Part shown: positions 4,327-63,123 of the stretch, one piece after another | Layout of the letters: each line of letters begins with the position of its first letter | How positions within the stretch are numbered: position 1 is the stretch's first letter | The notes under the pieces: generated by a model | Told to the model about the DNA's origin: nothing | Database searches by the model: none | The model's input: only the letters and a program-made list of their open reading frames with translations | Position numbers and translations under genes: made by a program | Source of the DNA: an uncultured delta proteobacterium | Lineage (GTDB): Bacteria; Desulfobacterota; Binatia; UTPRO1 | NCBI GenBank assembly: GCA_963761995.1 | Contig: CAVXIU010000006.1 | Span: 3,681,684-3,745,683 of the forward strand | Reading direction: 5' to 3' | DNA: 64,000 nucleotides

Positions 4327-4337
4327 AAGGGCACTCC

Positions 4338-10329: not shown

Positions 10330-10330
10330 G

Positions 10331-46400: not shown

Positions 46401-49400
46401 TCAGTGGACCGGTTCGAGGAGCGTCTTGCCGGTCAACTTCCAGCCCTTGGACTGCTGGATCCAGAGGCCGCGCACCACCCACTCCTCGTCGCCGACGTAC
46501 ACGTGGGTCGTCATGTCTTGCACCGACATGCCGAGGTCGCCGTATGCCTTCAGCGAGACGATGAAGTAGCCGAGACCAGCCTTGGTCTTCATCTGGTAGA
46601 TGCCGCCGCCGGCGCGCGCGCCGCGGTTCTTGTACCGCACGGACTTCACGTTCTGCACCTCGAGCGATCCCCGCACCAACGAGGCACGGAAGATGACCCC
46701 GTCGGCCGCGTCGCGGAGCTCGATCACGAAGTGGTTGTTGATGAAGTCGACCGGCGCGCCAATCGGAGTGATCAGCCGGCCATGGAAGTCGAACATGTCC
46801 TGCTGGGTGCCGTGCCCGAACTTGATGCGGGCCGGGTCGGCGCAGATCGGCTCGTTGCAGTTGTTGAGGCACTCGTCGAGCGGCTGCTGCGGCTTGTCGG
46901 TGCGGCAGCCGCTGATGGTGTTGCCGTCGTCGCACGTCTCCGTGTTGTTGGACTGGACGACGCCGTCGCCGCACCTGGTGCAGTCGAGGCGGCACCCGTT
47001 CACGCTCGGGACGACGTCCGGCGGATCGCAGGTTTCAAAGTCCGGAGCGCCGTTTTGGACCACGAAGTCGCCGCAGTTCGCCCCGATGCAGATGCCGTTG
47101 TTGGGGTGCAGGCAGAGGAAGCCCATCGACTGCGAGTCGCACGAGTCGTCGGTGCAGGGGTTCACGTCGTCGCAATCGACGGGATCCATGCCGACGCAGG
47201 TTCCGAAGCCGTCGGCCTCGTCGAGCTGGGTGCAGAAGCTGCCGTCGTTGCAAGGCGTACCCGCCGGCAGGAACGAGTCGGCCGGGCAGAACTTGTTGCT
47301 GCCGTCGCAGCTCTCTTCCTGATCGGCCGTGCTGGCGGCCGGGCGACAGACCGTCGAGTTCGGCTCGACGGAATCACCCGGGCACGACGGGCCGCCGCCC
47401 GTGCAGCTCTCGGAGATGTCGCACACGCCACCGGAGCCGCGGCAGACGGTCGCGCTCGACTCGAAGGAGTCGGCCGGACAGGCCGGGCCGGTGCCGGTGC
47501 AGTTCTCCGCCACGTCGCAGACGTCGACGACGGACCGACAGACGGTCGCGCTCGGCTCGAAGTCGTTCGCCGGGCAATGCGACGTTGGTGCCGTCGCAGT
47601 TCTCCTCGACGTCGCAGACGCCCGTGGTGGCGCGGCAGAGGGTGGCGCTGCTGGCGCGCGCGTCGGTCGGACAGGCCGCCGTGCTGCCGGTGCAGTTCTC
47701 GGCGATGTCGCAGACGCCCGTCGCCGAGCGGCAGGTCGTCGAGCTCGCCTCGAAGGCATCGGTCGGACAATCGTCGTTGGTGCCGTCGCAATCCTCGTCG
47801 ACGTCGCAGACGTCGGCCGCCGGACGGCAGAGCGCCGTGCTCTTGGCGTCGGTCGGGCAGTTCGCGCCGGACCCGGTGCAGTTGTCGGCCGTGTCACAGA
47901 CGCCGACACTGGCGCGGCAGAGAGTCGTGCTCGGCTCGAAGTCGTCGGTCGGACACGGCGCCGTCGAGCCGGTGCAGTTCTCGGCAACGTCGCAGACGCC
48001 GTCTGGTGGCGCGGCAGACGGTCGCCGCCGACTGGAAGCCGTTGGCCGGGACAATCGTCGTCGGAGCCGTCGCAGCTCTCGACCACGTCGCAGATGCCGG
48101 CCGACGGCCGACAGACCGCCGTGCTCTTGCTGTCGCCCGGGCAGGCTACGCCGGATCCGGTGCAATTCTCGACCAGGTCGCAGACGCCGACCGCACCGCG
48201 GCAGACGGTCGCCGCGCTCTTGAAGCCCTCGGCCGGACAATCATCGTCGGAGCCGTCGCAGCTCTCGACCACGTCGCAGACGCCGCCCGACGGCCGGCAG
48301 ACCGCCGTGCTCTTCGAGTCGCCCGGGCAGGGCGCGGTCGACCCGGTGCAGTTCTCCGCCAGGTCGCAGACGCCAGCCGCGCCGCGGCAGACCGTTGCCG
48401 CCGATTGGAAGGAGTTGGACGGACAGGTGTTGGCAAAGCCGTCGCAGCTCTCGGCGATATCGCAGACGCCGGCGCTCGGACGACAGACCGCCGTGCTCTT
48501 CGCATCGCTCGGGCAGGCCGCACCCGACCCCGTGCAGTTCTCAGAGGTATCGCAGATGCCGACGGAGCCGCGGCAGAGGGTCGCCGAGGACTTGAAGGCG
48601 TCCGCCGGACAATCGTCGTCGGAGCCGTCGCAGGTCTCAGTCAGGTCGCAGACGCCGGCGGAGCCGCGACAGAGCGCGGTGCTCTTGTCGTCGCCGGGAC
48701 AGGCGGCAGCGGAGCCGGTGCAGTTTTCGGTCAGGTCGCAGACGCCCGCCGAGCCGCGGCAGACCGTCGAGCTCGACACGAAGCCGTTCGGGGGACAGGC
48801 GTTGCTCGAGCCGTCGCAGCTCTCGGTAACGTCGCAGATGCCGCCCGTGGGCCGGCAGACGGCCGTGCTCTTGGAATCGCCAGGACACGCTGCACCCGAG
48901 CCGGTGCAGTTCTCGGCGACGTCACAGACGCCGCCCGAGCCGCGGCAGACCGTCGAGGACGACGCGAAGCCGTCCGCGGGACAGTTGTTGCCGACGCCGT
49001 CGCAGCTCTCGGCGACGTCGCAGACGCCGGCCGAGCCGCGGCAGACCGCCGTGCTCTTGCTGTCGCCCGGACACGCCGCGCCAGAGCCCGTGCAATTCTC
49101 CTGGAGATCGCAGACGCCGCCGGAGCCGCGACAGATGGTCGACGCCGAGGCGACGCCGTCGCCCGGGCAGGCCGCCGCGTTGCCTGGACAGTTCTCGACG
49201 ACGTCGCAGACGCCGGCCGAGGCACGACACGGGGTCGCCGCCGAGACGAACGCGTTGGCCGGACAGACCGAGTTCGACCCGTTGCAGTTCTCGGCGGCGT
49301 CGCAGACCCCCGCCGAGGCGCGACACGTGGTCGCGGCCGAGGCGAAGCCGTCGCCCGGACAGGCCGCCCCGCCGCCGCTGCAGTTCTCGGCGACGTCGCA

Positions 49401-50591
49401 GAGGTGACGGCGCCGCGACAGACGGTCGCTGACGACGCGAAGCCGTCGCCCGGACAGACCGTGCTCGAGCCGGTGCAGTTTTCGACGACGTCGCAGACCC
49501 CGCTCGAAGCACGACACGGGGTGGACGACGACGCGAAGCCGTCGTTCGGACAGAGGTTGCCGACACCGTCGCAACTCTCGGCCACGTCACAGATCGCGCC
49601 GCTCGACGGACGACAAACCGCGGTGCTCTTGGCATCGGCCGGACACGCCCCGGTACCCCCGGCGCAGTTTTCCAGCGGGTCGCACACGCCGCCAGACGCG
49701 CGGCACAGCGTCCCCGCCGACGCGAACAGGCAGGTCGAGGTGCAACACCCGCCGGGCGGGTCGCACTGCTCGGCACTCCCATCAGTCCCACTCACGGTAT
49801 CTGTTTGGGAATCGCCGCAGATGGACGTGTAGAATGCAAGGTCGACGTGCGACCGGTTGTTCTCCGTAAAGCCGGTGCCCTGTCGGTGGGCTCGCCGTGG
49901 TGCCAAAGAAGGTATTCGCCGGCGAAAAGGGGCCGCCGATGGCAGTGGCCGCTTCGATCAGGACGTTGACCGAAAAGCTGGCGACGCCCGAACCGACGCG
50001 CCAGAGCGAGTGCACGCCCTGGGCGGTACCGTTGCCCGTCAAGCCTCGGATGTTGGCGCCGGTGAGCGCCTGCGTCGTCGCGTCACTCACCACCGTGCCC
50101 GCGCCGCTGAACGTGAGCGTCACCCGCGTGAAGACCGTGCCGGGTCCGCCGTTGATCATCGCGGTCTGCCCGGTATAGCGGATGGTGGTCGCGGTGTCCG
50201 TCGACCAAATGAACATCTCGGTGCCGCTCGGCTCCGTCCCGACGCTGTTCATCTTGAGGCCGAACGGCAGCGTCGTGAGTCGGTTGATCCCGATGTACAG
50301 ATTCGAGAACGCGCTCGCCGTGCCGGCGCACGAATAGTTGCCGCCGCCGGCGAGCTTCTCCGAGCCGGCGACCGGCAAGCTACAGCTCCACCCCGCGCCC
50401 GGCGCAGTCGTGGGCCCGTTGCTGATGACGATCGCGCTTGCCGGCGCCGCCGCAACCAGCAGTCCGAGGACCGCGAGGGTCGCCATGCTGACCAGAGCCG
50501 AGCCGTGCCGTTTTGCGCCTGCCGGTGTCGCAGTGCCGAACGCACGAGTCTGGGCCGCCCAAATTCTCCGCTGTGGCCGAGCTAACGTCAT
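46401..50591 (-). pseudogene. Decayed paralog of the giant Cys-rich repeat protein, with at least 4 frameshifts.
   Basis: Signal peptide plus a ~230-aa N-terminal domain (frame of 49782..50876 from MTLARPQRR, ATG complement 50589-50591). Repeats continue in the frame of 48731..49906, then 46401..49574, with a middle segment only readable in the 47374..48240 frame. The C-terminal domain and a CDDGN module are retained. Confidence 0.6.
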
Positions 50592-50640
50592 CGCGACGCC
50601 TCCGTTGACGCCGAGGTGCACTCTGGCACCCGGCGGATTC

Positions 50641-50967
50641 TCACCACGACCCGTGCGATCCGTGGCTGCCGTGAGACCCATGGCTGCCGTGCGATCCATG
50701 GCTGCCGTGACTCCCGTGGCTGCCGTGGGACCCGTGGCTGCCGTGCGACCCGTGGCTGCCGTGACTCCCGTGGCTGCCATGCGAGGCATGGGAGAGATGT
50801 TGGGCAAGCAAAATGTTCTCGTTGTTGGGTTCGGAGCGCAGCGCCTGAGCCGCCTCGGACGCGTCGAGTCCGACATCGGGCTTCAGCGCCTGACGCGCCT
50901 CGTCCCGACTGAGAAAATCCACCGGCGTCTTCCGCAGTAACGGCAGCCCCTTCTCTTTGTCGCTCAT
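50641..50967 (-). CDS. Small protein: 62-aa leader followed by (His-Gly-Ser)x15-Trp. Candidate His-Xaa-Ser repeat precursor (HxsA-like) or His-rich metal-binding peptide.
   Basis: A strong SD (GAAGGAG) sits 7 nt upstream of the ATG. The N-terminal half is well composed (MSDKEKGLPLLRKTPVDFLSRDEARQALKPDVGLDASEAAQALR...). It lies 40 bp after the Tat-protein gene and 50 bp before the Cys-rich pseudogene. Confidence 0.65.
   Translation of the reverse strand: MSDKEKGLPLLRKTPVDFLSRDEARQALKPDVGLDASEAAQALRSEPNNENILLAQHLSHASHGSHGSHGSHGSHGSHGSHGSHGSHGSHGSHGSHGSHGSHGSHGSW
50645..50790 (-). repeat. Tandem 18-bp/9-bp coding repeat (cgtggctgccgtg[ac]gacc)x8 encoding (HGS)n.
   Basis: Perfect 9-bp periodicity. 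Reads as SHGSHG... on the minus strand. Confidence 0.8.
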
Positions 50968-51007
50968 GTCGGCTCCTTCACCTGAGTTCGCTGCGTGCGC
51001 CCGCCCT

Positions 51008-51595
51008 TTACCGCAACTTGCCGTCGGCCGAGGGGCCGTCCGCCGCCGCGAAGCGACGGACGCGCTCGCGGTGCGGCAGCAGCTCGGCGAACACGCCGTC
51101 CGCTACCTGGGCCTCGTTGGCCGCCACCGCGTGCGCCAGCTCCGCGACCGCCTGCCCGAGGTGCTCCTCGGTCGGGAGGTCTCCGTAGCCCTGATTCATC
51201 ACCACGAGATCGACCCGGCGCGTGTAGACGACGCCCTCGGGGCTCCCGTCGTTCTGGCAGAGATGCACCCGGTGCGAGCGCCCGCGCTCGTTTTGCAGCG
51301 TCACCACCGCCGACCCGTCCTGCACCGACGTGCAGTCGACGAGCCGCCAGCCGTGCGCCACCACGGCGCCGGCGCCGTACGGCGCCAGGAGATCCCAGGG
51401 CGGCGGCGCAGCGGCGAGCCCCGCCGAGTCCGTGCGCGGTGCCAGAGCGTTCGCCCCGTCCCGGTCGCTCGCAGGCTCATCCGTCGGGTCGCCAACAGGC
51501 CGCGTGGCCGCAATCCCGGTCCCCACGGCCCCAACAGCCAATGCCGCAGCCGCACCCACCGCCGCTTTGCCGATCAAATCGCGTCGTGAAAGCAT
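51008..51595 (-). CDS. Tat-signal secreted protein of unknown function.
   Basis: Twin-arginine motif SRRDLIGKAAVGAAAALAVGA. GAAGGGAG RBS. 195 aa with two Cys. Confidence 0.65.
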   Translation of the reverse strand: MLSRRDLIGKAAVGAAAALAVGAVGTGIAATRPVGDPTDEPASDRDGANALAPRTDSAGLAAAPPPWDLLAPYGAGAVVAHGWRLVDCTSVQDGSAVVTLQNERGRSHRVHLCQNDGSPEGVVYTRRVDLVVMNQGYGDLPTEEHLGQAVAELAHAVAANEAQVADGVFAELLPHRERVRRFAAADGPSADGKLR

Positions 51596-52123
51596 CGCCC
51601 GCTCCCTTCTGGAAACCTAACTCCCTCGCGATTCCGGATTCCCGTACCGACAAACCGCACCGAAGAGGCCCCCACCGCGTGAAACGTCATCGTGGACGAC
51701 GAGCCTTTTCGAAAAACCGATGAGCAATTCGTGCTCGAGGTGGGGGTCGGCATTGGAGGACGTGTCCGGGTAGCAATGTGCGGGGCAACTTGTCAATGAA
51801 AAAGTAAAGGAAGGCGGCGAATTTTGACGCTTTGAGATCGCGTGTGTCTCGGATGAGGATGATCGGCAGCGCCATATCAGCGCATGACGCGGTTGCACGC
51901 GCGGGTGCCGCGCGTCCCCTGCCGCCCGCACCATCGCGGAGGTGCACGACGAGCTGCGACGAGACACGACGCATCATGCGGGCGCGGTCGCTGACGCCAG
52001 GTCTCCGTTCCGGCGGCGTTGTTGCCGGCCGGCTCGGAATTGAGCTAGATCCGGGGCCCTTGCCCGTGAAGCGGGCGGTGGCTCATGCCGGCGACCGAGC
52101 AATGACGCGCGAAAGGAAAGACC

Positions 52124-52600
52124 GTGGCACTCGGTGAGGACGACGTTCGGTCGGAAGACCTCGAATCGCGTCTCGGCGTCTCGCTAGGGCGCGATCACGT
52201 GATGTTCGACGTCGACGAGACGGTCTATCCGCTCGAAGCGATCTACGGGGGAGCATATCTCTTCGTCGACCGATGCTTCGTGTTCCTCTCCCGACCGAGG
52301 CCGCAGGTGGTGAACGTCCGTTTGACGTCGCGTGGGCCGGCGACCTCCGCCGAGCTCGACGCGCTCGCGGGCGAGTTCATGAACGAGATCCTGTCGCAGG
52401 TGACGCGGCTGCGCCTGTCGCAAGCCACCGCTCGCATCCGCGAGTACTATACGGCCGCGGCGTTGCGGGCCGCGGCGTCGGCGCCTTCCGTCGACGATCT
52501 CCTGGCCGAGCTCGACGCGGAGGAGCTCGGGGACGACCCGCTCGAGATCTCGGTTCCCTGGGAAGCGAAGCCCGGCGACAAGGGAAGCGAGCCGAAGTAG
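52124..52600 (+). CDS. Small protein family A, copy 1 (paralog of 62665-63123). Possible HxsD-like accessory or peptide chaperone.
   Basis: GTG start after a GAAAGGAAAG RBS. Conserved core YP.EA.Y.AAY.F.DR..V.L......V..R.......AGEF.NE.L.Q. Confidence 0.55.
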   Translation: MALGEDDVRSEDLESRLGVSLGRDHVMFDVDETVYPLEAIYGGAYLFVDRCFVFLSRPRPQVVNVRLTSRGPATSAELDALAGEFMNEILSQVTRLRLSQATARIREYYTAAALRAAASAPSVDDLLAELDAEELGDDPLEISVPWEAKPGDKGSEPK

Positions 52601-52615: not shown

Positions 52616-52861
52616 ATGAGCCAGATCATCTTCGACCGATCGCTCTACACTCCCGAAGCCGTCGAGGCGGCCGCCGCGGCCTACGCCGAGTACGCGGACA
52701 TCACGCTCGAGCGCTCCGGCGACGCGGTGATCGCGACCATCAGCGCCGTCAGCGGCGGTGATCGCGAGACGATCGAGCACTCCTTCTGCAACCACGCGTT
52801 GCAGGAAACGGTCGTGCGGATGCGGCGGGCCGCCGCACCCGAAGCGCCGGAGCGCGTGTAG
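52616..52861 (+). CDS. Small protein family B, copy 1 (paralog of 63120-63366). Possible PqqD-like or other accessory protein.
   Basis: 81 aa. Conserved LYTPEA...A and a single-Cys motif (HSFCNHAL versus EFCNFAL in copy 2). The next gene starts right after the stop (TAGATG). Confidence 0.55.
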   Translation: MSQIIFDRSLYTPEAVEAAAAAYAEYADITLERSGDAVIATISAVSGGDRETIEHSFCNHALQETVVRMRRAAAPEAPERV

Positions 52862-54344
52862 ATGGTCGCCGGCGGAGTAGCGCCTTCGCCCTCGACGGTC
52901 GCGATCGACCGGCTGGGATTTTTTCGTTGGGGACGGATCGCCGAGAAAGTCCTGATCACGACGGATGGCGGCGACTGGGCCTTTCTGACCGAGCCGGAGT
53001 TCGCGCAGCTGCTCGCTGGCGAGATCCTGGAAGACCACCCGCGGTTCGCTGAGCTCCAGGGCGGCGGCTTTCTCCGCACGGGCCTCGATCTCGACGCGCT
53101 CGCGAGCAGGGTCGCACGGCAGCGTGGGCCACGTCGCGCGCGGGCCGGAGCTGCACGTCGTGACGATGAGCCGCCGCGCCGGGCAGGAAGCTCCATCGGC
53201 GGCGCCCGGCGCGCCCGCATGGACCTCGACCGCGAGACGGCCGAGAGGATCGTCGAGGTCGCGCTCCAGAGCAGATCGCCGTCGGTCTCATTCGAGCTGC
53301 AGGCGGCACGCCGGCGAGCCGTTGCTGAACGCCGACGGAGTCCGGCATCTCGTCGAATTCGCGCGGACGACGAACGCACGCGCCGAGGGGAAGACGCTCG
53401 GGTTCACGCTCGTCAGCAACTTGAGCGCCATGACGGCGGAGATGGCGGAGTGGCTGATCGCGAACGAGGTCGCCATCCGGACGTGGCTCGACGGACCGGC
53501 ACGAGCTCCACGAGTGGAACCGGAGATACACGTTGGCGGGAGCGCATGCGGACGTGGTCCGGTGGATCGAGTGGTTCGACCGCCGATACCGCGAGCTCGG
53601 GCTCGATCGCCGACGTCTGGCACGTCGACACAAGGATGACGACGACGCGCCGGACGCTGTCGGCCTGGCGCGAGGTCGTGGACGAGTACGTGGCGCGCGG
53701 GATGCGGTCCATCCAGCTCAGGCCGCTGAGCCCGCTCGGCTTCGACGCCGACGCGTGGCAGACGATCGGGTACACCGTCGAGGAATACCTGGCGTTCTAC
53801 GACCGCGCGTTCGGCTATATTGTTGGAGTTGAATCGCAGCGGGGTGCGCCTCGCCGAGAGGACGGCGTCGGGGTTCCTGAACGGCATCCTGTCCTCCGGG
53901 GATCCCGCCCTGCGGGAGATCCGGTCGCCGTGCTCGGCCGGGACGAGCGAGCTCGCATACGACGTCGATGGGCGGATATTCCCGGGCGACGAGGCGCGGC
54001 GCGTCGACGCGTTCGGGGATCCCATCTTCGCGCTCGGCAACGTGCGGGAGCTCAGGATCGCCGACATCGTCCGGCATCCGACGGCCCGGGCGATTGCGGC
54101 GGCGTCGCTCCTCGACGCGCAGCCGATGTGCGCGGACTGCTGGAACAAGCCGTTCTGCGGCATCTCGCCCGTGTCGACGTACGTCCGGGACGGGGACCTC
54201 TTCGGGCAGCGGCCGCGGTGCTTCGAGTGCAAGGAGCATATGGCGGTCTCCCGCACCCTGTTCGCTCGGCTGGCAAACGAGAGCGACCGGGAGACGAAGG
54301 AGATCCTCGAGCGCTGGACGGCCGGAAGCGGCCGCCCGCGCTAG
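52862..54344 (+). pseudogene. Radical SAM/SPASM maturase, HxsB-like, with an N-terminal KVLITxDxGDW extension. At least 4 frameshifts and the Cx3Cx2C motif is lost.
   Basis: The frame order is 2 -> 0 (FELQ|GEPLLNADG, caused by a 7-bp insertion cacgccg) -> 1 (WLDGPA|ELHEWNRRYTLAG) -> 2 (IADVWHVDTR...YDRAFGYIV) -> 0 (SPASM: SPCSAGTSELAYDVDGRIFPG, CADCWNKPFCG, RPRCFECKE). The expected Cys-motif region reads LHVVTMSRRAGQE. Confidence 0.6.
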
Positions 54345-54345
54345 C

Positions 54346-54599: not shown

Positions 54600-56478
54600 G
54601 TGAACACGAGCCTCCACTGTCCGACGCCGTCGAGCGGAGAACGCGCGCGACGCCGCGTCCCGGTCGCTGCGATTCGGACCATCGATCTCCGTATCTCGCT
54701 GGTTCGCGGTCCGGCCCGGCTGCCGTGGCGAGGCGGTAGGGGGGCGACCGACGAGCTTTCGCTGAGCGAGGTCCTGGATGGCGCGCGCGCCGTCGCCGGC
54801 CGGCCCGGCGCCTTCCTCGTCGGTGGCGGAGATCCGCTTCGCCGCACCGACCTACCGACCCTGCTCCACGAGCTCGCGCGAGCTCCGGCCCGAGAATCTC
54901 GGCCTCTGCACCGGAGGCGCGGGCGTGACGGGCACGATGGTCGATCGGCTGCGCTCCGTCGGGGTGCAGCGGCTGAGAGTGCCGTTCCACAGTGCACGCC
55001 GGGACGCACACGATTGGCTGGTCGGGCAGCCGGGCGCGCTCGGGACGGCGCTGCGCGCGATCCGTACCTGCGTCGATACCGGGATGCCGGTCGAGGCCGA
55101 GGTCGTCGTCACCCGGCCGACGATGCCGCACCTCGAGGAAACGATCGACGTCCTCACGCGAGTCGGGGTGCGCAAGATCGTCGTTCGACGTCTCGCCACG
55201 GTCGACGTCGGACGGGCCCGAATTCGTCCTGCTCTCGCCGCGCCTGTCGCTGCATCGCCGACGACCTGGAACGCGCGGCGACGACCGCGCTCCAGCGACG
55301 GTCCCGTATCGTGATCCGGGACTTTCCGGTCTGCGCCGCGCCGCGGTTGCGACGGCTCTTCGCCCGCTCCGACGCCGAGCTGTGGCTGACGGCGAACGGT
55401 GCGGTCGATGCCCGCGTCGAAGGCGGCCCGGGGTGCCCGGGCTGTCCCGGTGCGCCGCTCTGCGCCGGAGCGCCGGCGCGACTACGTGGCGCGCTTCGGC
55501 TGGGAAGAGTTCGCCGACCCGGCGCCATGCACGGCGCGCATCGAGGAGAACGTCGCGGCGCAGCAGAGCGTTCGGCCCGCGGGAACGATGGTGCTCTCGT
55601 GGCGCGGGCCGCGCCGCGTACGGTGCGACGCGTGCGCGGATGGCCATTCGGCCACAGGTGGTCACCCGACCGGCGACCATCCGACCGCGGGACCCGAGTC
55701 GACGCGCGCCGTCCGCGCCAGGCTGGTCGAGGCCGCGCGTTTCCGGCCGGCGGTCTTGCGGCTCGTCGGCGCCGAGCTGCTCGCCCATCCGAGCGCGGCT
55801 GCGCTGCTCTTCGACGCGGTCCGGCTCTTCCGGCGCGTCGAATGCGCCGGCGAGGGAAGCGCCATCCTCAAGTGGACCGACGTCGATTTGCGCCGCCTCA
55901 AGGATCTCCCGCGCATCGACGTCGCGTTCTACGGGCCGGACGCCGCGAGCCACGACGCCCACTGCGGAATCGCCGGCTCCTTCGCGGCGACCCTGCGCGG
56001 CGTCGAGCGATTGCGCGAGCAGACGTCGATCGCGGTCGGGGCCTACGCGATCGTCCATGACGCGCGCTCCGTCCCGCTCTTCGCCAACGCCTGGAGCCGC
56101 GGCGAGCTGCCGGGTCATCCACGGTTTCGCCTGGCGGCGGAAGGATCTTCCCTGGACGACGTCGTCGAGTGCGCGCGCCTCCTCCCGCCCGGCGCGGTGC
56201 GGTCGGCATTGTGGGCCGTGCTACCGCACTGCCTGTGCAACGAAGCGGGCCTGGGCTTGGACGAGGGTACTGGCGTCGAGTCCGCGGAGGGCAACGGTCC
56301 GGCGTTCGGCGTCGCCTTCGGGCGACGCGTCGAGTACGCGCCCCGCGGCTCGGATCCGGTCGGCGCCTTCGCAAGCTGCGGCGACGACGGGAATGCATGT
56401 ACCGTGATCGGCTGCCCCGGCACGGCAATCGGATGGCAGCGGAACGCGAGGTCGAAACGATGGATGCAGGACAGCTGA
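54600..56478 (+). pseudogene. Degenerate radical-SAM-like two-domain protein, a paralog of 56460-58335. It lacks the Fe-S Cys triad and has at least 3 frameshifts.
   Basis: The frame order is 0 -> 1 -> 0 -> 1. FLVGGGDPLRRTDLPTLLHELA|RENLGLCTGGAGV...VPFHSARRDAHDWLV aligns with VILSGGEGSIHPKFIDFVRYAREIGYSRVQTVTNGYM...SLHGHTPELHDRL of the next gene. TIDLRISLV occupies the place of CNSRCVFC. Confidence 0.5.
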
Positions 56479-58335
56479 CGGAACGGATGTTGGCGCGCGA
56501 GAGCGTGGCCAACGTCCGGAAGCACTGGGTACGGCTCGTCACGGCGTGCAACAGCCGCTGCGTGTTTTGCCTCGACACGGACACGCCGCGGAACATGTAC
56601 CTCTTGGAGCACGACGTTCACCAGGAGCTCAGGCGCGGACGCGAGGAGCTGAACGCCGACAAGGTGATCCTGTCGGGCGGCGAGGGCTCGATCCATCCGA
56701 AGTTCATCGACTTCGTGCGCTACGCGCGCGAGATCGGCTACAGCCGGGTGCAGACCGTCACCAACGGCTACATGTTCGCGAAGCGGGAGTTCTATCTCAA
56801 CGCCGTCGAAGCCGGGCTCGGCGAGATCACGTTCAGCCTGCACGGCCACACGCCCGAGCTGCACGACCGCCTCACGGGCGTCGAGGGCGCCTTCGACCGG
56901 CTGATGAAGGGCATGATACGCGCCCGCCGCGACGGACGCATCATCGTCAACGTCGACGTCTGCATCAACAAGCAGAACGTGGCGTACATCGACCAGATCG
57001 TCGCGCTCTGCCTTTCGGTGGGCGTCAACGAGTTCGACCTCCTGCACGTCATCCCGCAGGGCGCGGCGTTCGAGAACCGCGACGAGCTCTTCTACGATCC
57101 GGTCGAGCACCTGCCCCGCCTGCAGAAGGTCTTCCGTCTGAACCGCCATCCCAACGTCGTGGTGTGGACGAATCGCTTCCCGGTCGAGTTCCTCGAGGGC
57201 CTGGAAGACCTCATCCAGGATCCGCACAAGATGCTCGACGAGGTGAACGGCCGCCGCTTCCAGGTTCGCAAATACCTCGACGAAGGCGTTCCCCTCGAAT
57301 GCCGGCAGCAGGAGCGGTGCGTGCACTGCTTCATCGAGCCGTTCTGCACCACGGCCGATCGCGTGATCGAGCGCCAGAACCAGGCGAGCTGGGACGTCTG
57401 GTGGATGGGCGCCGCCACCGGCATTGGAAACATGCCTGCGGCGAACGAGCTACCCTTCGGGTGCCGTTCCATCGGCCTCGAGGTCGACGATCTGCCGGAC
57501 GTCGAAGGCCTCGGCGTCCATCCGGACGTCGGCATCTACGTCCGCCCGAAGCGCGCCTCCCGACTGGTCGATCGGGCGCGCGTGCCGAACCGCCTCCTGC
57601 TCGCGCTCCGCGAGCCGGAGCAGCTCGACGTCGTGCTCGGCGGCACGCCGCTTCCCGCGGGGGTCGAGGTCGAGATCGAGCTGAACCAGCGCACGGCCCC
57701 CTGGCTGCTCACGCAGCGCGAGCGCGTGCGGACGTACCTCGACGTGATCCGTCTGCATCAGCCGACCTACGAGTTCCTGAAGGACGCGGTCGCGAACGAC
57801 GTGCGCAATCTGAAGCGCTTCTTCACCGAGCTCGCGCTCCCCATCCGAGCCAGCGGCCTGACCGCGTGCCTCGCCCCGGGGACGCAGCTGGTCGAGGCGC
57901 CCAAGGTGCTCGAGAAGAAGATGTTCGACCCGGAGACCGGTCGCATCGCCATCCGCGAGCTGGCACGGACGCACGTCGTCCACGGCTACCAGGCCAAGTC
58001 GCTCCGCTGCCGCGATTGCGTCGTGACCGCCCGCTGCGAGGGTGCGCACATCAATTTCATCCGCGATCAGGGATTCGCGGAGCTCCAGCCGTTGCGCGAA
58101 GGTGCGTGGGCGGAGAACGCGGCGGCGCAGCTGACAGCACTCCGGCCGACGCCGCTCCCGCGCGTCCGCGACGGTCAGCCACTGCAGCCGGTCGGACCGA
58201 GCCTGCCCGGGCTTCGCGCCGCCGCAAGCGGCCCCGGTCGAGCCGTTGATCGAGTTCGCGCAAAAGAAACGCGAGGAGCGCGAGCGCGCGCGCCAGGAGG
58301 CCGCACAGCGGCGCCAGGTCTCGCTCGAAGGATAA
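56460..58335 (+). CDS. Radical SAM protein (~625 aa) with a Cys-rich auxiliary segment and a long C-terminal extension. One late frameshift at ~58195.
   Basis: Cx3Cx2C in VTACNSRCVFCLD. GGEG, TNGYM and SLHGHTPELHD motifs. Auxiliary Cys in ECRQQERCVHCFIEPFC. The frame changes from 0 to 1 at ctgcccgggcttcgcg (a ccc/ggg run). ATG 56433 is an alternative start. Confidence 0.65.
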
Positions 58336-58344
58336 CGACCGACG

Positions 58345-59382
58345 ATGGCGAACCTCGGCTACCTCCAGCTCACGCGGAACTGCTACCAGAAGTGCCACTT
58401 CTGCAGTAATCCGCCGACCGGCGTGCATCTCGACGAGGCCGAGATGCGCCGCAACATCGATAAGCTCGTCGAGATGGGCTACGACGGCGTGATCCTGACG
58501 GGCGGGGAGCCGAGCACCTCCGAGCTCCTCCTCCCGGCGCTCGCGTACGCGCGCGAGCAAAAGCTCTTCAGCCGCATGATCACCAACGGGCAGAAGCTCG
58601 CCGACAAGGACTTCTTCAAGCGCTGCGTCGACGCCGGTCTCACCCACATCCACGTCTCGCTCCACAGCTACCGGCGCGAGGTCCACGACTTCATCACGCA
58701 ATATCGCGGGGCGTGGGACGTGCTCGTCCGCTGCCTGGAGAACGTCCCGGAGATGGGCATCACCTCCGACATCAACACGGTCATCAACGTCTGGAACTGC
58801 GACCATCTCCACGAGAACGTCCGCTGGATCTGCGAGAACTTCCCGTTCATCCGCCACTTCGTCTGGAACAACATGGACCCCGACGGCAATCGCGCCGAGG
58901 AGAATCCCGACTGCATCCCGCGCCACTACGAGTTCCAGGTGTCGCTCGAGAAGGCGATGGACTACCTCGTGAGCACCGGGCGGAGCTTCCGCGCCGAGCG
59001 GGTCCCGCTCTGCTACATGCGGCGCTACGCGTGGGCCTCGACGGAAGCGCGCAAGATCATCAAGGAGGAGGAGCGCTGCATTCGCTTCCTCGACTTCAAG
59101 GGCTTCATCCACCAGAAGGAGTTCCTGCACGGCAAGGGTGACGCCTGCCAGGCGTGCCGCTTCGACCCGATCTGCGCGGGCATGTTCTCGATGGCGAAGA
59201 GCTACGACGAGCGCGAGCTCTCGCCGATCTTCGACGACCCCACCCCGATGATCGCGAAGGTGCTGAGACGCGAACCGTCGCCGGAGCTCATGGCGCGGCT
59301 CATGGCGCGACGTGGGCGGCGCTCACTGACCGAGCAGCCCTCGCTCGAGCGCCGGCAGCAAGCGATGGAGCGGCCTCTGTAG
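58345..59382 (+). CDS. Radical SAM protein with a C-terminal twitch/SPASM-like Cys cluster. Intact.
   Basis: TRNCYQKCHFC (Cx3Cx2C), GGEPS, TNGQKL, and C-terminal CQACRFDPICAG. 345 aa with no frame breaks. Confidence 0.85.
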   Translation: MANLGYLQLTRNCYQKCHFCSNPPTGVHLDEAEMRRNIDKLVEMGYDGVILTGGEPSTSELLLPALAYAREQKLFSRMITNGQKLADKDFFKRCVDAGLTHIHVSLHSYRREVHDFITQYRGAWDVLVRCLENVPEMGITSDINTVINVWNCDHLHENVRWICENFPFIRHFVWNNMDPDGNRAEENPDCIPRHYEFQVSLEKAMDYLVSTGRSFRAERVPLCYMRRYAWASTEARKIIKEEERCIRFLDFKGFIHQKEFLHGKGDACQACRFDPICAGMFSMAKSYDERELSPIFDDPTPMIAKVLRREPSPELMARLMARRGRRSLTEQPSLERRQQAMERPL

Positions 59383-59386
59383 CGCA

Positions 59387-60790
59387 ATGCCGCGTTTCCT
59401 CTTCATCAATCCGCCGCTCGTCCTCGAGGACGACTTCATCGACTACCCCTTCTTCGCCAATCACGGGTTGCTCGCGTGTGCGGGGTTGGCGGCGCGGTCG
59501 GGTGCGGACGTCGCGGTGCACGACGCGTTCGCGTTGCGCGACTCGGGACGTCACCGCCGCGCCGGCGGGGGATGGGTGCTCGGCGTCGGGCACGACGAGT
59601 TCATCGCGTCGCTGCCGCGCGGCCGCTTCGACGTCGTGGTGCTCGGCGGCCCGGTCTTCCTCCGCATCGAGGCCGCCCATGCGGAGACCCGCGCGCTCAT
59701 CGCCGCCCTCCGCGAGCGATTTCCACGCTCCGTCCTGCTGCTCGCCGACGGCTACGTGGGCGGCCAGCACTACGCCGACTACGACGCCGAGCGGGTCCTC
59801 GCACAGTATCCGGAGTTCGACGCAATTCTGAAATACCCCGGCGAGCGCTTCTTCGCCGAGCCGGAATATCTCGCGACCCTCGGCGACGCGCGCGTCGTGT
59901 TGCGCGAGGCGGAGAGTCGCGGTGCCGATCCGCTCGAGCCGTTCTACTTCCTCGACGGCATCGACGTCGGCAACTTCGATCGCTTCCTCGAGCGCTGCTT
60001 CGGCGACGGGACGTGGCAGAACACGTTCGGCGTCGGCGCGGGGACGCGCTCGTTCGTGACCAGCATCGGCTGCCCGCATCGCTGCATCTTCTGCACGAGC
60101 AACCCGGGCTGGCGACGGACGGGACGCAAGCTCTACCGGCCGATCCCCCTGCCCCGCCTCACGCACTGGGCGTATCTCCTGCAAAACCGTATTCGCCGCG
60201 AAAAAGCTGATCGTGCTGGACGAGATGGTGAACGTCCGGACGGACTTCGAGGCGATGCTCCGCATGCTGAACGAGCTGGACTTCACCTACGATTTCCCGA
60301 ACGGCATGCGCGCGGACCATTTGAGCCGCGAGGCGATCGGCGCTGATGAAAGGACGCGTCGGGATGCTGAGCATCTCGGCGGAGAGCGCGACGCAGGAAG
60401 ATGTGAACGGACCCATCGGCAAGGGGCAGCCGCTCGACGCGATCCGACGCGTCGCGGAATGGTGTCGCGAGCTCGACGTGCCGCTGATGAGCCACTACAT
60501 CATCGGCTTCCCCTGGGAGACGCCGGCGCACGTCACCGGCACGCTCGAGATGGCGTGGGAGCTGTACGAACGCTACGGGGCTTGGCCGTCGATGCAGTTC
60601 GCGACCCCGATTCTCGGCACCGCGCTGCACGAGCAGTGCGTGTCCATGGGTCTGATTCCGCCTGAAGGCATCGACCTCAAGGACGGCGCGCTCTTCCAGC
60701 ACCGCCCGTGCTTCGATCCGCCCGGCCTGTCCCCCGGGGTACCTCGAGAAGGCACGCGCCGCGTTCGACATGAAGATCGCGGCCCGTGAG
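59387..60790 (+). CDS. B12-binding-domain radical SAM protein (class B-like), with at least 3 frameshifts.
   Basis: N-terminal cobalamin-binding-like fold (MPRFLFINPPLV...). SFVTSIGCPHRCIFCTSNPGW (Cx3Cx2C). It continues in frame 0 (KLIVLDEMVNVRTDFEAMLRMLNELDFTYDFPNGMRADHLS), then frame 1 (LSISAESATQEDVNGPIGKG...IIGFPWETPAHV), then frame 2 (YLEKARAAFDMKIAAREAQQ). The true stop is unclear. Confidence 0.6.
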
Positions 60791-62659: not shown

Positions 62660-62664
62660 GGACG

Positions 62665-63123
62665 ATGACACGCGTGCAAATCGAGACCTTGGATCCAGCA
62701 ACGGCGACCCTGACGCTCTCGCTCGACGTCGGCCTGTACCCGCGCGACGTTCTGTACGCCGCCGCGTACGTGTTCCTGGACCGCGCCTACGTGCTGCTCG
62801 ACCGCCAGGACTCGCGGTTCATCGTGCACTTCCGCGCCAAGCGCCCCCTCGAGGAGGCGACGTTCCGCGCCATGGCGGGCGAGTTCGAGAACGAGCTCCT
62901 CGCGCAGGCGCTGCGCCATCAAGTCGTCGACGCGAACCAGCGCATCATCGAGGACGTCGTCGCGGTCGCCATCGCGGGCGCGTCGGTCAGCGACGAACCC
63001 GAGGCGGGTTCCGCGGCGGAGCATCCTCCGCTCATCGACCCGACAGACCCGGAGGACGGCTTCCTCGGCGACCCGCTCGGCATCGCCCGACCATTCGAGC
63101 CGGAGAAGCAAGGTACCGAATGA
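62665..63123 (+). CDS. Small protein family A, copy 2.
   Basis: 152 aa. Homologous to 52124-52600 (LYPRDVLYAAAYVFLDRAYVLLDR...MAGEFENELLAQALR). Begins 6 nt after the upstream stop. Confidence 0.6.
   Translation: MTRVQIETLDPATATLTLSLDVGLYPRDVLYAAAYVFLDRAYVLLDRQDSRFIVHFRAKRPLEEATFRAMAGEFENELLAQALRHQVVDANQRIIEDVVAVAIAGASVSDEPEAGSAAEHPPLIDPTDPEDGFLGDPLGIARPFEPEKQGTE

What the first reader, a model, noticed from the sequence alone, without database searches (positions are those of the whole stretch)
50641..50967. Leader-plus-(His-Gly-Ser)x15 repeat peptide gene with a strong RBS, facing a large radical SAM cluster
The ORF encodes a normal-looking 62-aa N-terminal region followed by 15 perfect HGS repeats and a terminal Trp. 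The repeats are encoded by a perfectly periodic 9/18-bp DNA repeat. The gene has a canonical GAAGGAG Shine-Dalgarno and is wedged 40 bp behind a Tat-signal protein gene, so it is unlikely to be a translation artefact of the repeat.

The His-Xaa-Ser repeat peptide family (HxsA) is catalogued in TIGRFAMs as the presumptive substrate of paired radical SAM/SPASM maturases (HxsB/HxsC). Here the rSAM genes lie ~1.1 kb away on the opposite strand. The local organisation is therefore non-canonical and possibly a new variant of that poorly understood system.
Basis: partly seen in the sequence, partly recalled or inferred. Interest (0 to 1): 0.85.

Follow-up and report, generated by a model that had tools for sequence, protein, structure and literature searches.

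The report
His-Gly-Ser repeat peptide for radical-SAM maturation
This is a real small gene for a leader-plus-(His-Gly-Ser)n peptide of the already catalogued HxsA4 family, encoded next to a large radical-SAM "Hxs" maturation cluster in an uncultured soil myxobacterium-like genome; its chemistry and role are still unknown.

Summary
Window 50641-50967 (-) encodes 108 aa: a 56-aa leader, then HLS-HAS-(HGS)15-W. It has a GAAGGAG ribosome-binding site and lies 40 nt behind a twin-arginine-signal protein gene. The DNA repeat is not perfect: all its variation is synonymous. The same is true across 14 orthologues, so the HGS frame is under protein-level selection.

The peptide passes NCBIfam's curated HxsA4 model (120 bits, cutoff 55) but fails classical HxsA. 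The opposite-strand cluster holds HxsD, an HxsD-like protein, two HxsB copies and five HxsC-like radical-SAM genes.

In 80 related MAG loci, about 40 carry such a peptide. It is either divergent, as here, or co-directional. Omnitrophota HxsA4 loci have the same multi-rSAM layout. So this is a new member of a catalogued, uncharacterised sub-type, not a new system.

Distinctive points:
- a conserved Tat-signal partner protein
- an almost invariant C-terminal Trp
- 4 to 49 repeats
- two radical-SAM paralogues that lack the CX3CX2C motif

Caveat: about 19 single-base insertions break most cluster genes in this window. These are probably assembly errors, possibly decay.

Most likely mechanism (inferred): radical-SAM modification of the HxS triplets, then an extracytoplasmic role.

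The parts
50641..50967 (-). HxsA4-family precursor gene (108 aa). The leader is codons 1-56. The HLS-HAS-(HGS)15 array is 50647-50799. The C-terminal Trp is 50644-50646 and the stop is 50641-50643.
   Evidence: Translation. NF038313 HxsA4 scores 120.2 bits against a cutoff of 55. There is only synonymous variation, both within the array and across 14 orthologues. The leader motif LPxLxKxPxxFL...AQ|H is conserved.
50979..50985 (-). Shine-Dalgarno sequence GAAGGAG, 5 nt upstream of the ATG.
   Evidence: Read directly from the sequence.
51008..51595 (-). Tat-signal partner protein (195 aa), 40 nt upstream of the peptide gene and probably co-transcribed. It has a twin-arginine signal, an acidic linker, and a conserved C-terminal domain of about 130 aa with unknown fold.
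46401..50591 (-). Downstream secreted protein. A 269-aa ORF with a signal sequence (49782-50591) is followed by Disintegrin-like Cys-rich repeats, which are broken over three frames.
   Evidence: Translation. tblastn hits of the L001 695-aa protein fall in frames -1, -2 and -3. The L019 equivalent (910 aa) scores 108.8 bits on PF00200. No terminator-like site lies between the peptide and this gene.
51596..52123 (.). Divergent intergenic region of about 530 bp with lower G+C (0.60-0.64), lying between the Tat195-peptide unit and the rSAM cluster.
   Evidence: Composition and sequence. There is no Rfam match and no sigma-70 consensus.
52124..52600 (+). HxsD-like protein, copy 1 (158 aa).
   Evidence: TIGR03976 scores 44.4 bits, below the cutoff of 50. 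It is 46% identical to the L003 HxsD.
52616..52861 (+). Small HxsD-related protein (81 aa).
   Evidence: NF038315 HxsD_rel scores 59.2 bits against a cutoff of 41. It is 51% identical to the L003 78-aa protein.
52862..54344 (+). HxsB paralogue, copy 1. In this window it is broken by five 1-nt insertions and one 2-nt insertion. Intact orthologues lack the CX3CX2C radical-SAM motif.
   Evidence: Frame changes. The insertions are seen against four references. The L006 orthologue scores 359.2 bits on TIGR03978, below the cutoff of 370, and has no CX3CX2C.
54600..56478 (+). rSAM-fold protein of about 645-685 aa without CX3CX2C (a pseudo-rSAM that keeps CxxCx5C). In this window it is broken by about four 1-nt insertions.
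   Evidence: The orthologue L019 scores 63 bits on PF04055. Cys pattern.
56460..58409 (+). HxsC-like radical-SAM enzyme (about 624 aa). CX3CX2C is present. There is one 1-nt insertion near the C-terminus, at about 58213.
   Evidence: It is 70% identical to the L013 624-aa protein. TIGR03977 scores 83 bits (cutoff 268) and NF038332 scores 90.6 bits (cutoff 500). Cys motif and insertion.
58345..59382 (+). HxsC-like radical-SAM enzyme (345 aa), with no indel relative to L004. CX3CX2C is at residue 13.
   Evidence: TIGR03977 scores 98.6 bits (cutoff 267.9) and PF04055 scores 77 bits. It has 95.5% nucleotide identity and no gaps against L004. Cys motif. It was used as the query for 80 related loci.
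59387..61705 (+). Two-domain radical-SAM protein of about 770 aa: a B12-rSAM-like N-terminal half and an HxsC4-like C-terminal half, each with CX3CX2C. In this window it is cut by six 1-nt insertions.
   Evidence: Frames. The insertions at about 60183, 60339, 60729, 60796, 61301 and 61306 are seen against both L004 and L005. Removing them restores a stop-free ORF. Family hits for the L013 orthologue. Cys motifs.
61702..62659 (+). Radical-SAM protein of about 315 aa. CX3CX2C is present. There is one 1-nt insertion at about 62024. Its start overlaps the stop of the previous gene (ATGA).
   Evidence: Family hits for the L019 orthologue.
62656..63120 (+). HxsD, copy 2.
   Evidence: TIGR03976 scores 59.4 bits against a cutoff of 50.
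63229..64000 (+). HxsB, copy 2, N-terminal part. The start lies between 63229 and 63358. CNHGCQYC is present. There is one 1-nt insertion at about 63552. The gene runs off the end of the window.
   Evidence: TIGR03978 scores 164.5 bits over profile positions 3-191 of 466. The full-length orthologue L013 scores 499.8 bits against a cutoff of 370. Frames and correction.

Best explanation
The ORF is a genuine, translated precursor protein of the HxsA4 sub-family of His-Xaa-Ser repeat proteins.

Gene organisation (shown):
- It forms a unit with the Tat-signal protein gene 40 nt upstream.
- This unit lies head-to-head with an Hxs-type maturation cluster on the + strand. The cluster holds HxsD, an HxsD-related small protein, a degenerate HxsB paralogue, a pseudo-rSAM, three single-domain HxsC-like rSAM enzymes, one two-domain rSAM enzyme, a second HxsD and a bona fide HxsB.
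- In orthologous loci an alpha-KG/HExxH peptide hydroxylase follows.

Proposed mechanism (inferred):
1. The conserved N-terminal leader (LPxLxKxPxxFL...) docks the peptide on the HxsD/HxsB/HxsC-like machinery in the cytoplasm.
2. The radical-SAM enzymes act repeatedly on the HxS triplets.
   - The most likely chemistry is a His-to-Ser side-chain cross-link or carbon insertion in each triplet.
   - This is by analogy with the +8 Da change on the SHRSS motif of E. coli HxsA, and with His-C2 to X3-C-beta cyclophanes in triceptides.
   - Further tailoring may come from the B12-like rSAM domain and the HExxH hydroxylase.
3. The product then works outside the cytoplasm.
   - The peptide has no signal or membrane segment of its own.
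   - The conserved Tat-signal protein is therefore the best candidate for its carrier or periplasmic partner.

The final biological role is not established. It could be phage exclusion as for classical HXS, metal handling, or a peptide-derived cofactor or material.
For: Identity: NF038313 HxsA4 scores 120.2 bits against a cutoff of 55.

Translation and selection:
- All variation within the array is synonymous, and only this frame is perfectly repetitive.
- In 14 orthologous arrays Ser uses six codons, Gly four and His two, with an invariant HGS protein. Leader substitutions are mostly third-position.
- There is a strong SD sequence.

Link to the cluster:
- The scan was seeded with the 58345-59382 rSAM. 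About 40 of the 83 loci examined (the 80 retrieved plus 3 fetched through peptide homologues) carry an (HxS)n peptide with the same leader.
- The peptide is divergent in the close clade and co-directional in the distant clade.
- L003 has all parts in one operon, and these map onto the window.

Hxs components:
- HxsD copy 2 scores 59.4 against a cutoff of 50, and HxsD_rel scores 59.2 against 41.
- The N-terminal part of HxsB copy 2 scores 164.5 bits. Its orthologues score 499.8, 498.1 and 468.7 against a cutoff of 370.
- CX3CX2C motifs are present in six rSAM domains.
- The HExxH hydroxylase orthologue scores 87 bits against a cutoff of 40.

Architecture: an Omnitrophota HxsA4 locus has the same layout.

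Extracytoplasmic inference:
- The Tat motif is invariant in 29 homologues and kept in distant clades.
- Myxo-type peptides lack a hydrophobic segment (maximum KD15 of 0.09-0.63). Omnitrophota-type peptides have one (1.4-2.0).
- Classical HxsA is matured by HxsB, HxsC and HxsD and acts in the periplasm (PMC13128918).

Chemistry precedent: HisC2-to-C-beta cross-links are formed on H-x-x motifs by rSAM/SPASM enzymes (PMC11499958).
Against: - No modification has been observed. The chemistry is an analogy only, and even for E. coli HxsA the +8 Da change is structurally undefined.
- No gene reaches the curated HxsC cutoff (best 98.6 against 267.9) or the HxsC4 cutoff (best 116.6 against 500).
- The peptide and the enzymes are on opposite strands, so co-expression is not shown.
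- In this window most cluster genes are broken by about 19 small insertions. The system may be inactive in this genome unless these are assembly errors.
- The Tat-partner idea rests only on conserved adjacency and the signal motif. Its C-domain has no recognisable fold.
- The peptide lacks the peptidoglycan-binding domain and the basic residues of the defence effector HxsA.
Confidence: 0.8

Rival explanations
1. The locus is an HXS-like antiphage system. The matured (HGS)n peptide would sit in the periplasm and block phage DNA entry, as shown for E. coli HxsA. This rival concerns the biological role and is compatible with the maturation model above.
For: Classical HxsDBCA gives broad phage resistance through an rSAM-matured periplasmic HxS-repeat effector (PMC13128918). 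Here HxsB, HxsD and HxsC-like genes are present. A Tat-signal partner points to the periplasm.
Against: - The peptide fails the HxsA model, with 18.1 bits against 121.65.
- It has no peptidoglycan-binding domain.
- Its repeats carry Gly rather than basic residues.
- The cluster has about four more catalytic rSAM domains than the two-enzyme HXS system.
- The neighbouring genes are housekeeping (cytochrome oxidase, ABC1 kinase) and not a defence island.
- PADLOC gives only generic viperin-type rSAM hits.
- 99.7% of classical HXS systems are in Pseudomonadota.
Confidence: 0.2
2. The product is a periplasmic metal-binding peptide or peptide-derived cofactor. The 16-17 imidazoles, modified or not, would chelate Ni, Cu or Zn, or would become a prosthetic group of the Tat-exported partner protein.
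For: - The core is extremely His-rich.
- Tat substrates are typically exported folded, with cofactors or partners (established knowledge).
- The Tat partner has invariant His111, Cys113, Asn115 and Asp116.
- Some relatives (L004, L006) add a QhpG/LodB-like flavin monooxygenase, of the kind that makes Trp-derived quinone cofactors. The peptide ends in a nearly invariant Trp.
- Periplasmic copper-binding RiPPs (bufferins) are a precedent (PMC12452194).
Against: - There is no metal-homeostasis gene or transporter in the conserved cluster.
- Repeat number ranges from 4 to 49, which is odd for a defined cofactor.
- The flavin monooxygenase is absent from this window and from most loci.
- The hits to QhpG are weak: 43.6 bits against a cutoff of 240.
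Confidence: 0.2
3. In this particular genome the system is a decaying relic. The peptide gene survives, but the maturases are pseudogenes.
For: About 19 frame-breaking insertions lie in HxsB1, the pseudo-rSAM, the 624-aa, 770-aa and 315-aa rSAM genes and HxsB2. There are further frame breaks in the downstream Cys-rich gene. Genes elsewhere in the window are intact over 6.3 kb, 3.8 kb and 2 kb. A 1.7-kb flavoprotein gene present in L004 and L006 is missing here.
Against: - Every event is an insertion, nearly all of one base, and there is no net deletion and no nonsense substitution.
- Removing the insertions restores full-length stop-free ORFs.
- Amino-acid identity to orthologues is as high in the shifted segments (81-85%) as elsewhere.
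- This pattern fits long-read consensus error better than natural decay, which is deletion-biased (established knowledge).
- Related long-read MAG contigs (L005, L012) also show sporadic frame breaks.
Confidence: 0.25
4. The ORF is an untranslated by-product of a tandem DNA repeat, or the + strand (AAVxPV)n frame is the real product.
For: The + strand frame across the repeat is also open (ORF 50616-50912). High-G+C genomes carry many spurious ORFs.
Against: - Only the HGS frame is perfectly repetitive. The + strand frame reads SVAAVRPMAAVRSMAAVTPVAAVGPV..., with non-synonymous variation.
- Ser alternates between the AGY and TCN codon families.
- The leader, the C-terminal Trp and the stop are conserved in 38 peptides from distant lineages.
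- A curated HMM is matched.
Confidence: 0.02

Closest known systems
NCBIfam NF038313 'His-Xaa-Ser repeat protein HxsA4' and its clusters, for example the Omnitrophota locus L084 (GCA_030681595.1)
   Same: - The peptide passes the curated cutoff, with 120.2 bits against 55.
- It shares the N-terminal LPxIKKxIKxFL-type motif, the (HxS)n core and the C-terminal G(S/Q)W.
- The cluster grammar is the same: a protein of about 190 aa, HxsD, a small HxsD-like protein, HxsB, HxsA4, then many HxsC-like rSAM genes.
   Different: - Here the peptide has no hydrophobic mid-segment.
- Its partner of about 190 aa is an unrelated Tat-signal protein.
- The peptide and Tat gene are inverted relative to the enzymes.
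- HxsD and HxsB are duplicated, with one HxsB copy degenerate.
- None of the rSAM genes reaches the HxsC4 cutoff.
Classical HXS antiphage system HxsD-HxsB-HxsC-HxsA of Gammaproteobacteria (Li et al., Nat Commun 2026, PMC13128918)
   Same: - It is a His-Xaa-Ser repeat protein with HxsB (rSAM/SPASM), HxsC-type rSAM and HxsD.
- The repeat protein is the substrate.
- The destination is probably extracytoplasmic.
   Different: [quoted passage not shown] Here the peptide is 108 aa with 17 HxS triplets, 15 of them HGS, and a terminal Trp.
- TIGR03979 is not met.
- Classical HXS has two rSAM enzymes. Here there are six catalytic rSAM domains and two pseudo-rSAM proteins.
- 99.6% of classical systems have the order D-B-C-A on one strand. 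Here the peptide is divergent.
- A defence role has not been tested here.
Triceptides: three-residue cyclophane RiPPs made by rSAM/SPASM enzymes on aromatic-X-X motifs, including the His motifs of HaaB, YhhB and HtkB (PMC11499958)
   Same: - There are repeated aromatic-X-X triplets with His at position 1, behind a leader.
- An rSAM/SPASM maturase is present. HxsB orthologues give sub-threshold hits to the YhhB, AmcB, GrrM/OscB and XyeB cyclophane-synthase models.
- An alpha-KG/HExxH tailoring enzyme lies in the cluster (PMC12636437).
   Different: HxsB is a separate equivalog family. There are many extra HxsC-like, MoaA/NirJ-like rSAM enzymes. No cyclophane has been shown on any HxS motif. The +8 Da reported for HxsA is not the -2 Da of a cyclophane.
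Quinohemoprotein amine dehydrogenase maturation (QhpD rSAM/SPASM, QhpC small subunit, QhpG flavin monooxygenase)
   Same: A small ribosomal peptide is multiply cross-linked by an rSAM/SPASM enzyme and ends up in the periplasm with partner proteins (established knowledge). HxsB orthologues hit the QhpD model at 92-101 bits. L004 carries a weak QhpG-like gene.
   Different: All hits are far below cutoff. There are no QhpA, QhpB, QhpE or QhpF homologues. The core is HGS repeats, not Cys/Asp/Glu/Trp. The flavoprotein gene is absent from this window.

Membership tests
HxsA4 (NCBIfam NF038313) | Whole-protein HMM score at or above the curated cutoff of 55 bits | tested here: met
   120.2 bits, E 5e-35, over residues 8-97 against profile positions 2-88 of 93.
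HxsA4 (NCBIfam NF038313) | Short protein with an N-terminal conserved motif, a tandem His-Xaa-Ser core and a C-terminal Trp | tested here: met
   108 aa with 17 HxS triplets and a terminal W. The leader motif and the GSW or GQW end are shared with members that NCBI names HxsA4.
HxsA, classical (TIGR03979) | HMM score at or above 121.65 bits | tested here: not met
   18.1 bits.
HxsA, classical (HXS defence effector) | Peptidoglycan-binding domain plus about five HxS repeats rich in basic residues (PMC13128918) | tested here: not met
   Pfam finds only a low-complexity Collagen hit on the repeat. The repeats are HGS.
His-Xaa-Ser system | HxsB radical SAM/SPASM maturase (TIGR03978, cutoff 370 bits) in the neighbourhood | tested here: inconclusive
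   Copy 2 (63229-64000) scores 164.5 bits over profile positions 3-191 of 466, because the window ends there. Its full-length orthologue L013 scores 499.8 bits. Copy 1 is frame-broken. Its orthologue L006 scores 359.2 bits and lacks CX3CX2C.
His-Xaa-Ser system | HxsD (TIGR03976, cutoff 50 bits) | tested here: met
   62659-63120 scores 59.4 bits. The other copy, 52124-52600, scores 44.4 bits, below the cutoff.
His-Xaa-Ser system | HxsC radical SAM maturase (TIGR03977, cutoff 267.9 bits) | tested here: not met
   The best score is 98.6 bits, for 58345-59382. The other genes score 54-84 bits. TIGR03977 is the top or near-top hit for these genes, so they are HxsC-like and not equivalogs.
HxsA4-type system | HxsC4 radical SAM protein (NF038332, cutoff 500 bits) | tested here: not met
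   The best scores are 116.6 bits for the L013 770-aa orthologue and 90.6 bits for window 56169-58409.
HxsA4-type system | HxsD-like small protein (NF038315, cutoff 41 bits) | tested here: met
   52616-52861 scores 59.2 bits.
Classical HXS system | Co-directional gene order hxsD-hxsB-hxsC-hxsA (99.6% of systems, PMC13128918) | tested here: not met
   The peptide is on the - strand and the enzymes are on the + strand. Co-directional layouts do exist in more distant relatives such as L003 and L036-L082.
Classical HXS system | Confers resistance to phage by blocking DNA entry | not testable with these tools
   This needs phage challenge of a host that expresses an intact cluster.
RiPP-like precursor and maturase pair | Conserved co-occurrence of the leader-core peptide with the modifying enzymes across lineages | tested here: met
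   About 40 of 83 loci carry the peptide. Many of the others are cut short by contig ends. Two orientations occur, and the leader is conserved.
Tat substrate (upstream 195-aa protein) | Twin-arginine signal: S/T-R-R-x-F-L-K followed by a hydrophobic stretch | tested here: inconclusive
   The motif SRRDLIGK plus an Ala/Val-rich stretch is invariant in 29 homologues. Distant homologues have SRRTFLKK or TRRSVLK. The only HMM hit, TIGR02811, scores 19.5 bits against a cutoff of 48.45. Export was not tested.
Triceptide (three-residue cyclophane RiPP) | Aromatic C to X3 C-beta cross-link (-2 Da per motif) installed by an rSAM/SPASM enzyme | not testable with these tools
   This needs MS or NMR of the modified peptide. 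The only sequence-level link is sub-threshold hits of HxsB to the YhhB, AmcB, GrrM and XyeB models.

The most novel reading that the evidence does not exclude
The myxobacterial HxsA4 peptides could be precursors of a new kind of product. Every HGS triplet of a 4- to 49-unit array would be rebuilt by a relay of six radical-SAM domains, plus an HExxH hydroxylase, into a poly-cross-linked imidazole polymer or cofactor. This product has no export signal of its own. It would leave the cytoplasm by 'hitch-hiking' on a dedicated Tat-signal carrier protein with a previously unseen fold.
Probability: 0.15. Interest if true: 0.8.

Novelty: new member of a known kind. Interest (0 to 1): 0.45.

Why it matters
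His-Xaa-Ser repeat proteins were predicted to be radical-SAM substrates more than a decade ago. Only in 2026 was the classical four-gene HXS system shown to be a periplasmic antiphage barrier, and its chemistry is still unsolved.

The HxsA4 branch seen here is catalogued but has no published characterisation in the literature I could search. It has several features that make it a good target:
- It invests six catalytic radical-SAM domains in the simplest possible core, (HGS)n-W.
- Its repeat number varies ten-fold between relatives.
- In this lineage it always travels with a Tat-signal protein of unknown fold.

These features make it a tractable substrate for working out what Hxs enzymes do to His and Ser, and for testing whether a modified peptide can be exported with a Tat carrier. 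It does not overturn anything known. Its value is as a well-defined experimental target, and about 40 natural variants were mapped here.

Tried and rejected
- An exact look-up of the peptide found nothing. Exact look-ups of the 100%-identical Tat protein (P0121) and its paralogue (P0122) also gave no contig. The cluster listing gave only the contig length, 6,995,498 bp, with no accession. The source genome therefore could not be fetched.
- PADLOC gave only generic viperin-type rSAM hits. That release predates HXS, so it says little either way.
- Rfam at a relaxed threshold on 50.4-52.9 kb gave only a chance miRNA hit on the repeat. There are no tRNAs in the window. No sigma-70 promoter consensus was found, and the terminator-like sites were no more frequent than in shuffled sequence.
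- The literature search found no paper that mentions HxsA4 or HxsC4.
- I first took 52862-54574 (570 aa), 54600-56060 (486 aa) and 56169-58409 (746 aa) as genes. GC3 profiles and tblastn with intact orthologues showed that the first two are frame-shift chimeras and that the third has a spurious N-terminal extension.
- I considered that the 345-aa rSAM gene was truncated, because the L003 homologue is 381 aa and tblastn ran past the stop. I rejected this because 345 aa is the native length in L013 and L019.
- I tried to reconstruct the downstream Cys-rich gene from related loci. This was too noisy in this high-G+C repeat sequence.
Full report
**1. The observation**

The - strand ORF 50641-50967 translates to 108 residues:

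MSDKEKGLPLLRKTPVDFLSRDEARQALKPDVGLDASEAAQALRSEPNNENILLAQ-HLS-HAS-(HGS)15-W-stop

- GAAGGAG lies 5 nt upstream of the ATG.
- The gene upstream on the same strand (51008-51595) stops 40 nt before the ATG. It starts MLSRRDLIGKAAVGAAAALAV..., a twin-arginine signal.
- The + strand cluster begins at 52124.

The one inaccuracy is that the DNA repeat is not perfect. TRF gives 84% matches at period 18 and 93% at period 54.

The variation in the repeat is informative:
- His uses CAC or CAT.
- Gly uses GGC, GGG or GGA.
- Ser switches between the AGY and TCN codon families.
- Every difference is therefore synonymous in this frame. The other five frames give imperfect repeats, for example + strand ...SVAAVRPMAAVRSMAAVTPVAAVGPV....

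**2. Is the ORF translated?**

Comparative evidence says yes.
- In 14 orthologous arrays from related loci, Ser uses all six codons (AGC 68, AGT 26, TCA 10, TCC 13, TCG 100, TCT 5). Gly uses four codons and His two. The protein is always HGS.
- In the leader, differences from the window are concentrated at third positions: 4/3/16 by codon position against L004, and 7/7/28 against L012.
- I extracted 38 peptides from related loci. Nearly all complete ones end ...HGSW* or ...HGSHGQW*. They share a leader consensus LPxLxKxPxxFLxxxE.xQ...A.AL..DP......AQ|HxSHxS.
- The number of HxS triplets ranges from 4 to 49.

**3. Family assignment**

- NCBIfam places the peptide in NF038313, 'His-Xaa-Ser repeat protein HxsA4', at 120.2 bits against a curated cutoff of 55.
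- Homologues that NCBI names HxsA4 come from Omnitrophota and Elusimicrobia MAGs.
- The exact sequence is not in the protein collection.
- A leader-only phmmer search against 1.84 billion representatives finds just 27 clusters, all metagenomic.

**4. The neighbourhood**

A JGI contig that carries a 64%-identical peptide (L003) has everything on one strand:

rSAM(620 aa) - rSAM(381) - 185-aa protein - HxsD - 78-aa protein - HxsB-like rSAM(502) - peptide - HxsD

tblastn maps each of these onto the window. Using intact orthologues from short-read assemblies (L013, L019, L006) as guides, the + strand cluster reads as follows:

| Coordinates | Gene | Evidence |
|---|---|---|
| 52124-52600 | HxsD-like | 44.4 bits, cutoff 50 |
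| 52616-52861 | HxsD-related small protein | NF038315, 59.2 bits against 41 |
| 52862-54344 | HxsB paralogue 1 | see below |
| 54600-56478 | rSAM-fold protein | see below |
| 56460-58409 | HxsC-like rSAM | |
| 58345-59382 | HxsC-like rSAM, 345 aa | |
| 59387-61705 | 770-aa protein with two rSAM domains | B12-rSAM-like N-terminal half, HxsC4-like C-terminal half |
| 61702-62659 | rSAM | |
| 62656-63120 | HxsD | 59.4 bits against 50 |
| 63229-64000 | HxsB, running off the window | 164.5 bits over the first 191 of 466 profile positions |

- The full-length orthologue of the last HxsB scores 499.8 bits against a cutoff of 370.
- In orthologous loci a TPR protein and an alpha-KG/HExxH peptide beta-hydroxylase follow (TIGR04267, 87 bits against 40).
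- Six rSAM domains carry CX3CX2C motifs.
- HxsB paralogue 1 and the 645-685-aa protein lack CX3CX2C but keep C-terminal CxxCx5C clusters. They are probably non-catalytic.
- None of the HxsC-like genes reaches the HxsC cutoff (best 98.6 against 267.9) or the HxsC4 cutoff (best 116.6 against 500).

**5. How conserved is the link?**

A scan of 185,579 species-representative genomes with the 345-aa rSAM returned 80 loci.
- All are uncultured MAGs. They are labelled Deltaproteobacteria, Myxococcota, Polyangiaceae, Ca. Binatia and so on.
- The best is 98% identical. None is identical.

A synteny table shows several layouts:
- Close clade (85-98% identity): peptide< Tat-protein< | pseudo-rSAM> rSAM624> rSAM345> rSAM770> rSAM315> HxsD> HxsB> HExxH>.
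- The window, L004, L005, L006, L009 and L031 have an extra HxsD, small protein and HxsB1 module inserted.
- Distant clade (64-77% identity): co-directional ...rSAM345> Tat-protein homologue> HxsD> small> HxsB> peptide> rSAM770>.
- Three loci have the whole peptide sub-module inverted.

The divergent arrangement is therefore real but clade-typical, and the functional association does not depend on orientation.

The Omnitrophota HxsA4 locus L084 has the same grammar, with at least seven rSAM genes after the peptide. Its HxsB scores 490 bits and its HxsD 55 bits. This is why I classify the finding as a new member of a catalogued sub-type and not as a new system.

**6. The Tat-signal partner**

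- The 195-aa protein upstream of the peptide has homologues in the same sub-module as the peptide in both myxobacterial layouts: directly upstream of the peptide in the divergent layout, and three genes upstream of it (before HxsD, the small protein and HxsB) in the co-directional one.
- In 29 homologues M1, S3, R4, R5, L7 and K10 are invariant. So are residues of a C-terminal domain: W67, H111, C113, N115-D116-G117, DLVVMN, T142/E144, N160-E161, P174-H175.
- Distant homologues keep SRRTFLKK (L053) or TRRSVLK (L003).
- Myxobacterial peptides have no hydrophobic segment (maximum 15-residue Kyte-Doolittle mean of 0.09-0.63). Omnitrophota-type HxsA4 peptides have a signal- or TM-like stretch (1.4-2.0) and no Tat partner.
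- This complementary pattern is the basis for my inference that the Tat protein is the carrier or periplasmic partner of the mature peptide. It is an inference only.
- The 100%-identical protein sits on a 6,995,498-bp NCBI/ENA contig, presumably the source genome. That contig also encodes an 83%-identical paralogue.

**7. Integrity of the cluster in this window**

Relative to L004, L005, L006, L009 and L031, the window carries extra bases:

| Gene | Insertions |
|---|---|
| 770-aa rSAM | six 1-nt |
| HxsB1 | five 1-nt and one 2-nt |
| Pseudo-rSAM | about four 1-nt |
| rSAM624, rSAM315, HxsB2 | one 1-nt each |

- The total is about 19 insertion events between 52.8 and 64 kb, with no net deletion and no nonsense substitution.
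- Deleting the insertions restores stop-free full-length ORFs.
- The Cys-rich gene downstream of the peptide is also split over three frames.
- By contrast, the peptide, the Tat protein, HxsD1, the small protein, rSAM345 and HxsD2 are unbroken.
- Elsewhere in the window there are intact ORFs of 2110 aa and 1280 aa, and a full-length COX1.
- The insertion-only pattern and the undiminished amino-acid identity in shifted segments point to local consensus errors in a long-read MAG. Real recent decay cannot be excluded without the reads.

**8. Mechanism**

Shown here:
- family membership
- selection on the HGS frame
- conserved co-occurrence with HxsB, HxsD and HxsC-like rSAM genes and with a Tat-signal protein

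Taken from the literature:
- In E. coli, HxsB, HxsC and HxsD are all needed to process HxsA and to install a +8 Da change on an S-H-R-S-S motif. The mature protein acts in the periplasm against phage DNA entry (PMC13128918).
- rSAM/SPASM enzymes can link His-C2 to the C-beta of the third residue of H-x-x motifs (PMC11499958).
- Alpha-KG/HExxH enzymes are RiPP tailoring enzymes (PMC12636437).

Inferred:
- leader-guided, iterative radical-SAM modification of each HxS triplet in the cytoplasm
- optional further tailoring
- a periplasmic destination through the Tat partner

The natural occurrence of functional-looking 4-repeat variants next to 49-repeat ones suggests that each triplet is an independent modification site.

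The biological role remains open. It could be defence, metal handling or a cofactor. I give the alternatives roughly 0.2 each, and 0.02 for an untranslated artefact.

**9. Verdict**

The finding is real and correctly recognised as an Hxs-type precursor. Its novelty was overstated: it is a member of the curated HxsA4 family, in a clade-typical inverted layout. It remains a good experimental target because the sub-type has no published characterisation that I could find, and because of the Tat partner, the terminal Trp and the unusually large rSAM complement. Interest is 0.45.

Noticed in passing
window 52862-64000 and 46401-49846: About 19 small insertions, nearly all of one base, break six genes of the rSAM cluster relative to up to five related loci, with no net deletions. 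The Cys-rich gene downstream of the peptide is also split over three frames. The rest of the window has intact ORFs of 6.3 kb, 3.8 kb and 2 kb, so the problem is regional. It is probably a long-read consensus artefact, and possibly decay.
   Followed up: partly
window 54344-54563, compared with L004 4468-6123 and L006 3236-4837: Close relatives carry a 533-551-aa FAD-dependent monooxygenase between HxsB1 and the pseudo-rSAM. It gives weak QhpG/LodB-like hits (43.6 bits). The window and L005 lack this 1.7-kb gene. This is of interest because QhpG and LodB make Trp-derived quinone cofactors and the peptide ends in a conserved Trp.
   Followed up: partly
window 52862-54344 and 54600-56478 (orthologues L006 1721-3205, and L019 5343-7400 or L006 5218-7155): Two members of the cluster have an rSAM fold but no CX3CX2C motif, while keeping C-terminal CxxCx5C cysteines. 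They look like non-catalytic 'pseudo-rSAM' paralogues, perhaps scaffolds or peptide binders.
   Followed up: partly
outside the window: P0122, on the same 6,995,498-bp contig as P0121: The source genome encodes a second, 83%-identical copy of the Tat-signal partner protein. This hints at a second HxsA4 locus elsewhere in the genome. It could not be fetched.
   Followed up: no
L085 (three peptides), L019 and L069 (two each), L002: Some related loci carry two or three tandem HxsA4 paralogues with different repeat numbers, for example 19 and 42 in L069. Repeat number ranges from 4 to 49 across loci.
   Followed up: partly
window 25755-28619 (+), 38933-42775 (-), 46401-49846 (-): There are several large Disintegrin-like Cys-rich repeat proteins in one 64-kb window, one of them fused to a purple-acid-phosphatase/metallophosphoesterase domain (1280 aa). 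One such protein lies directly downstream of the peptide gene here and in L001 and L019. Whether that adjacency is functional is unknown.
   Followed up: partly
window 15559-21891 (-): A 2110-aa ORF has an N-terminal AAA_16 ATPase domain and SnoaL-like/DUF4440 domains. It is an unusual large architecture that I did not examine further.
   Followed up: no
window 931-5150 (+): Cytochrome oxidase subunit I (full-length COX1 match) and subunit II genes lie here, with an ABC1 kinase (9004-10494) and an ABC transporter ATPase (11283-13067) beyond them. This is ordinary chromosomal context, not a defence island or mobile element.
   Followed up: partly
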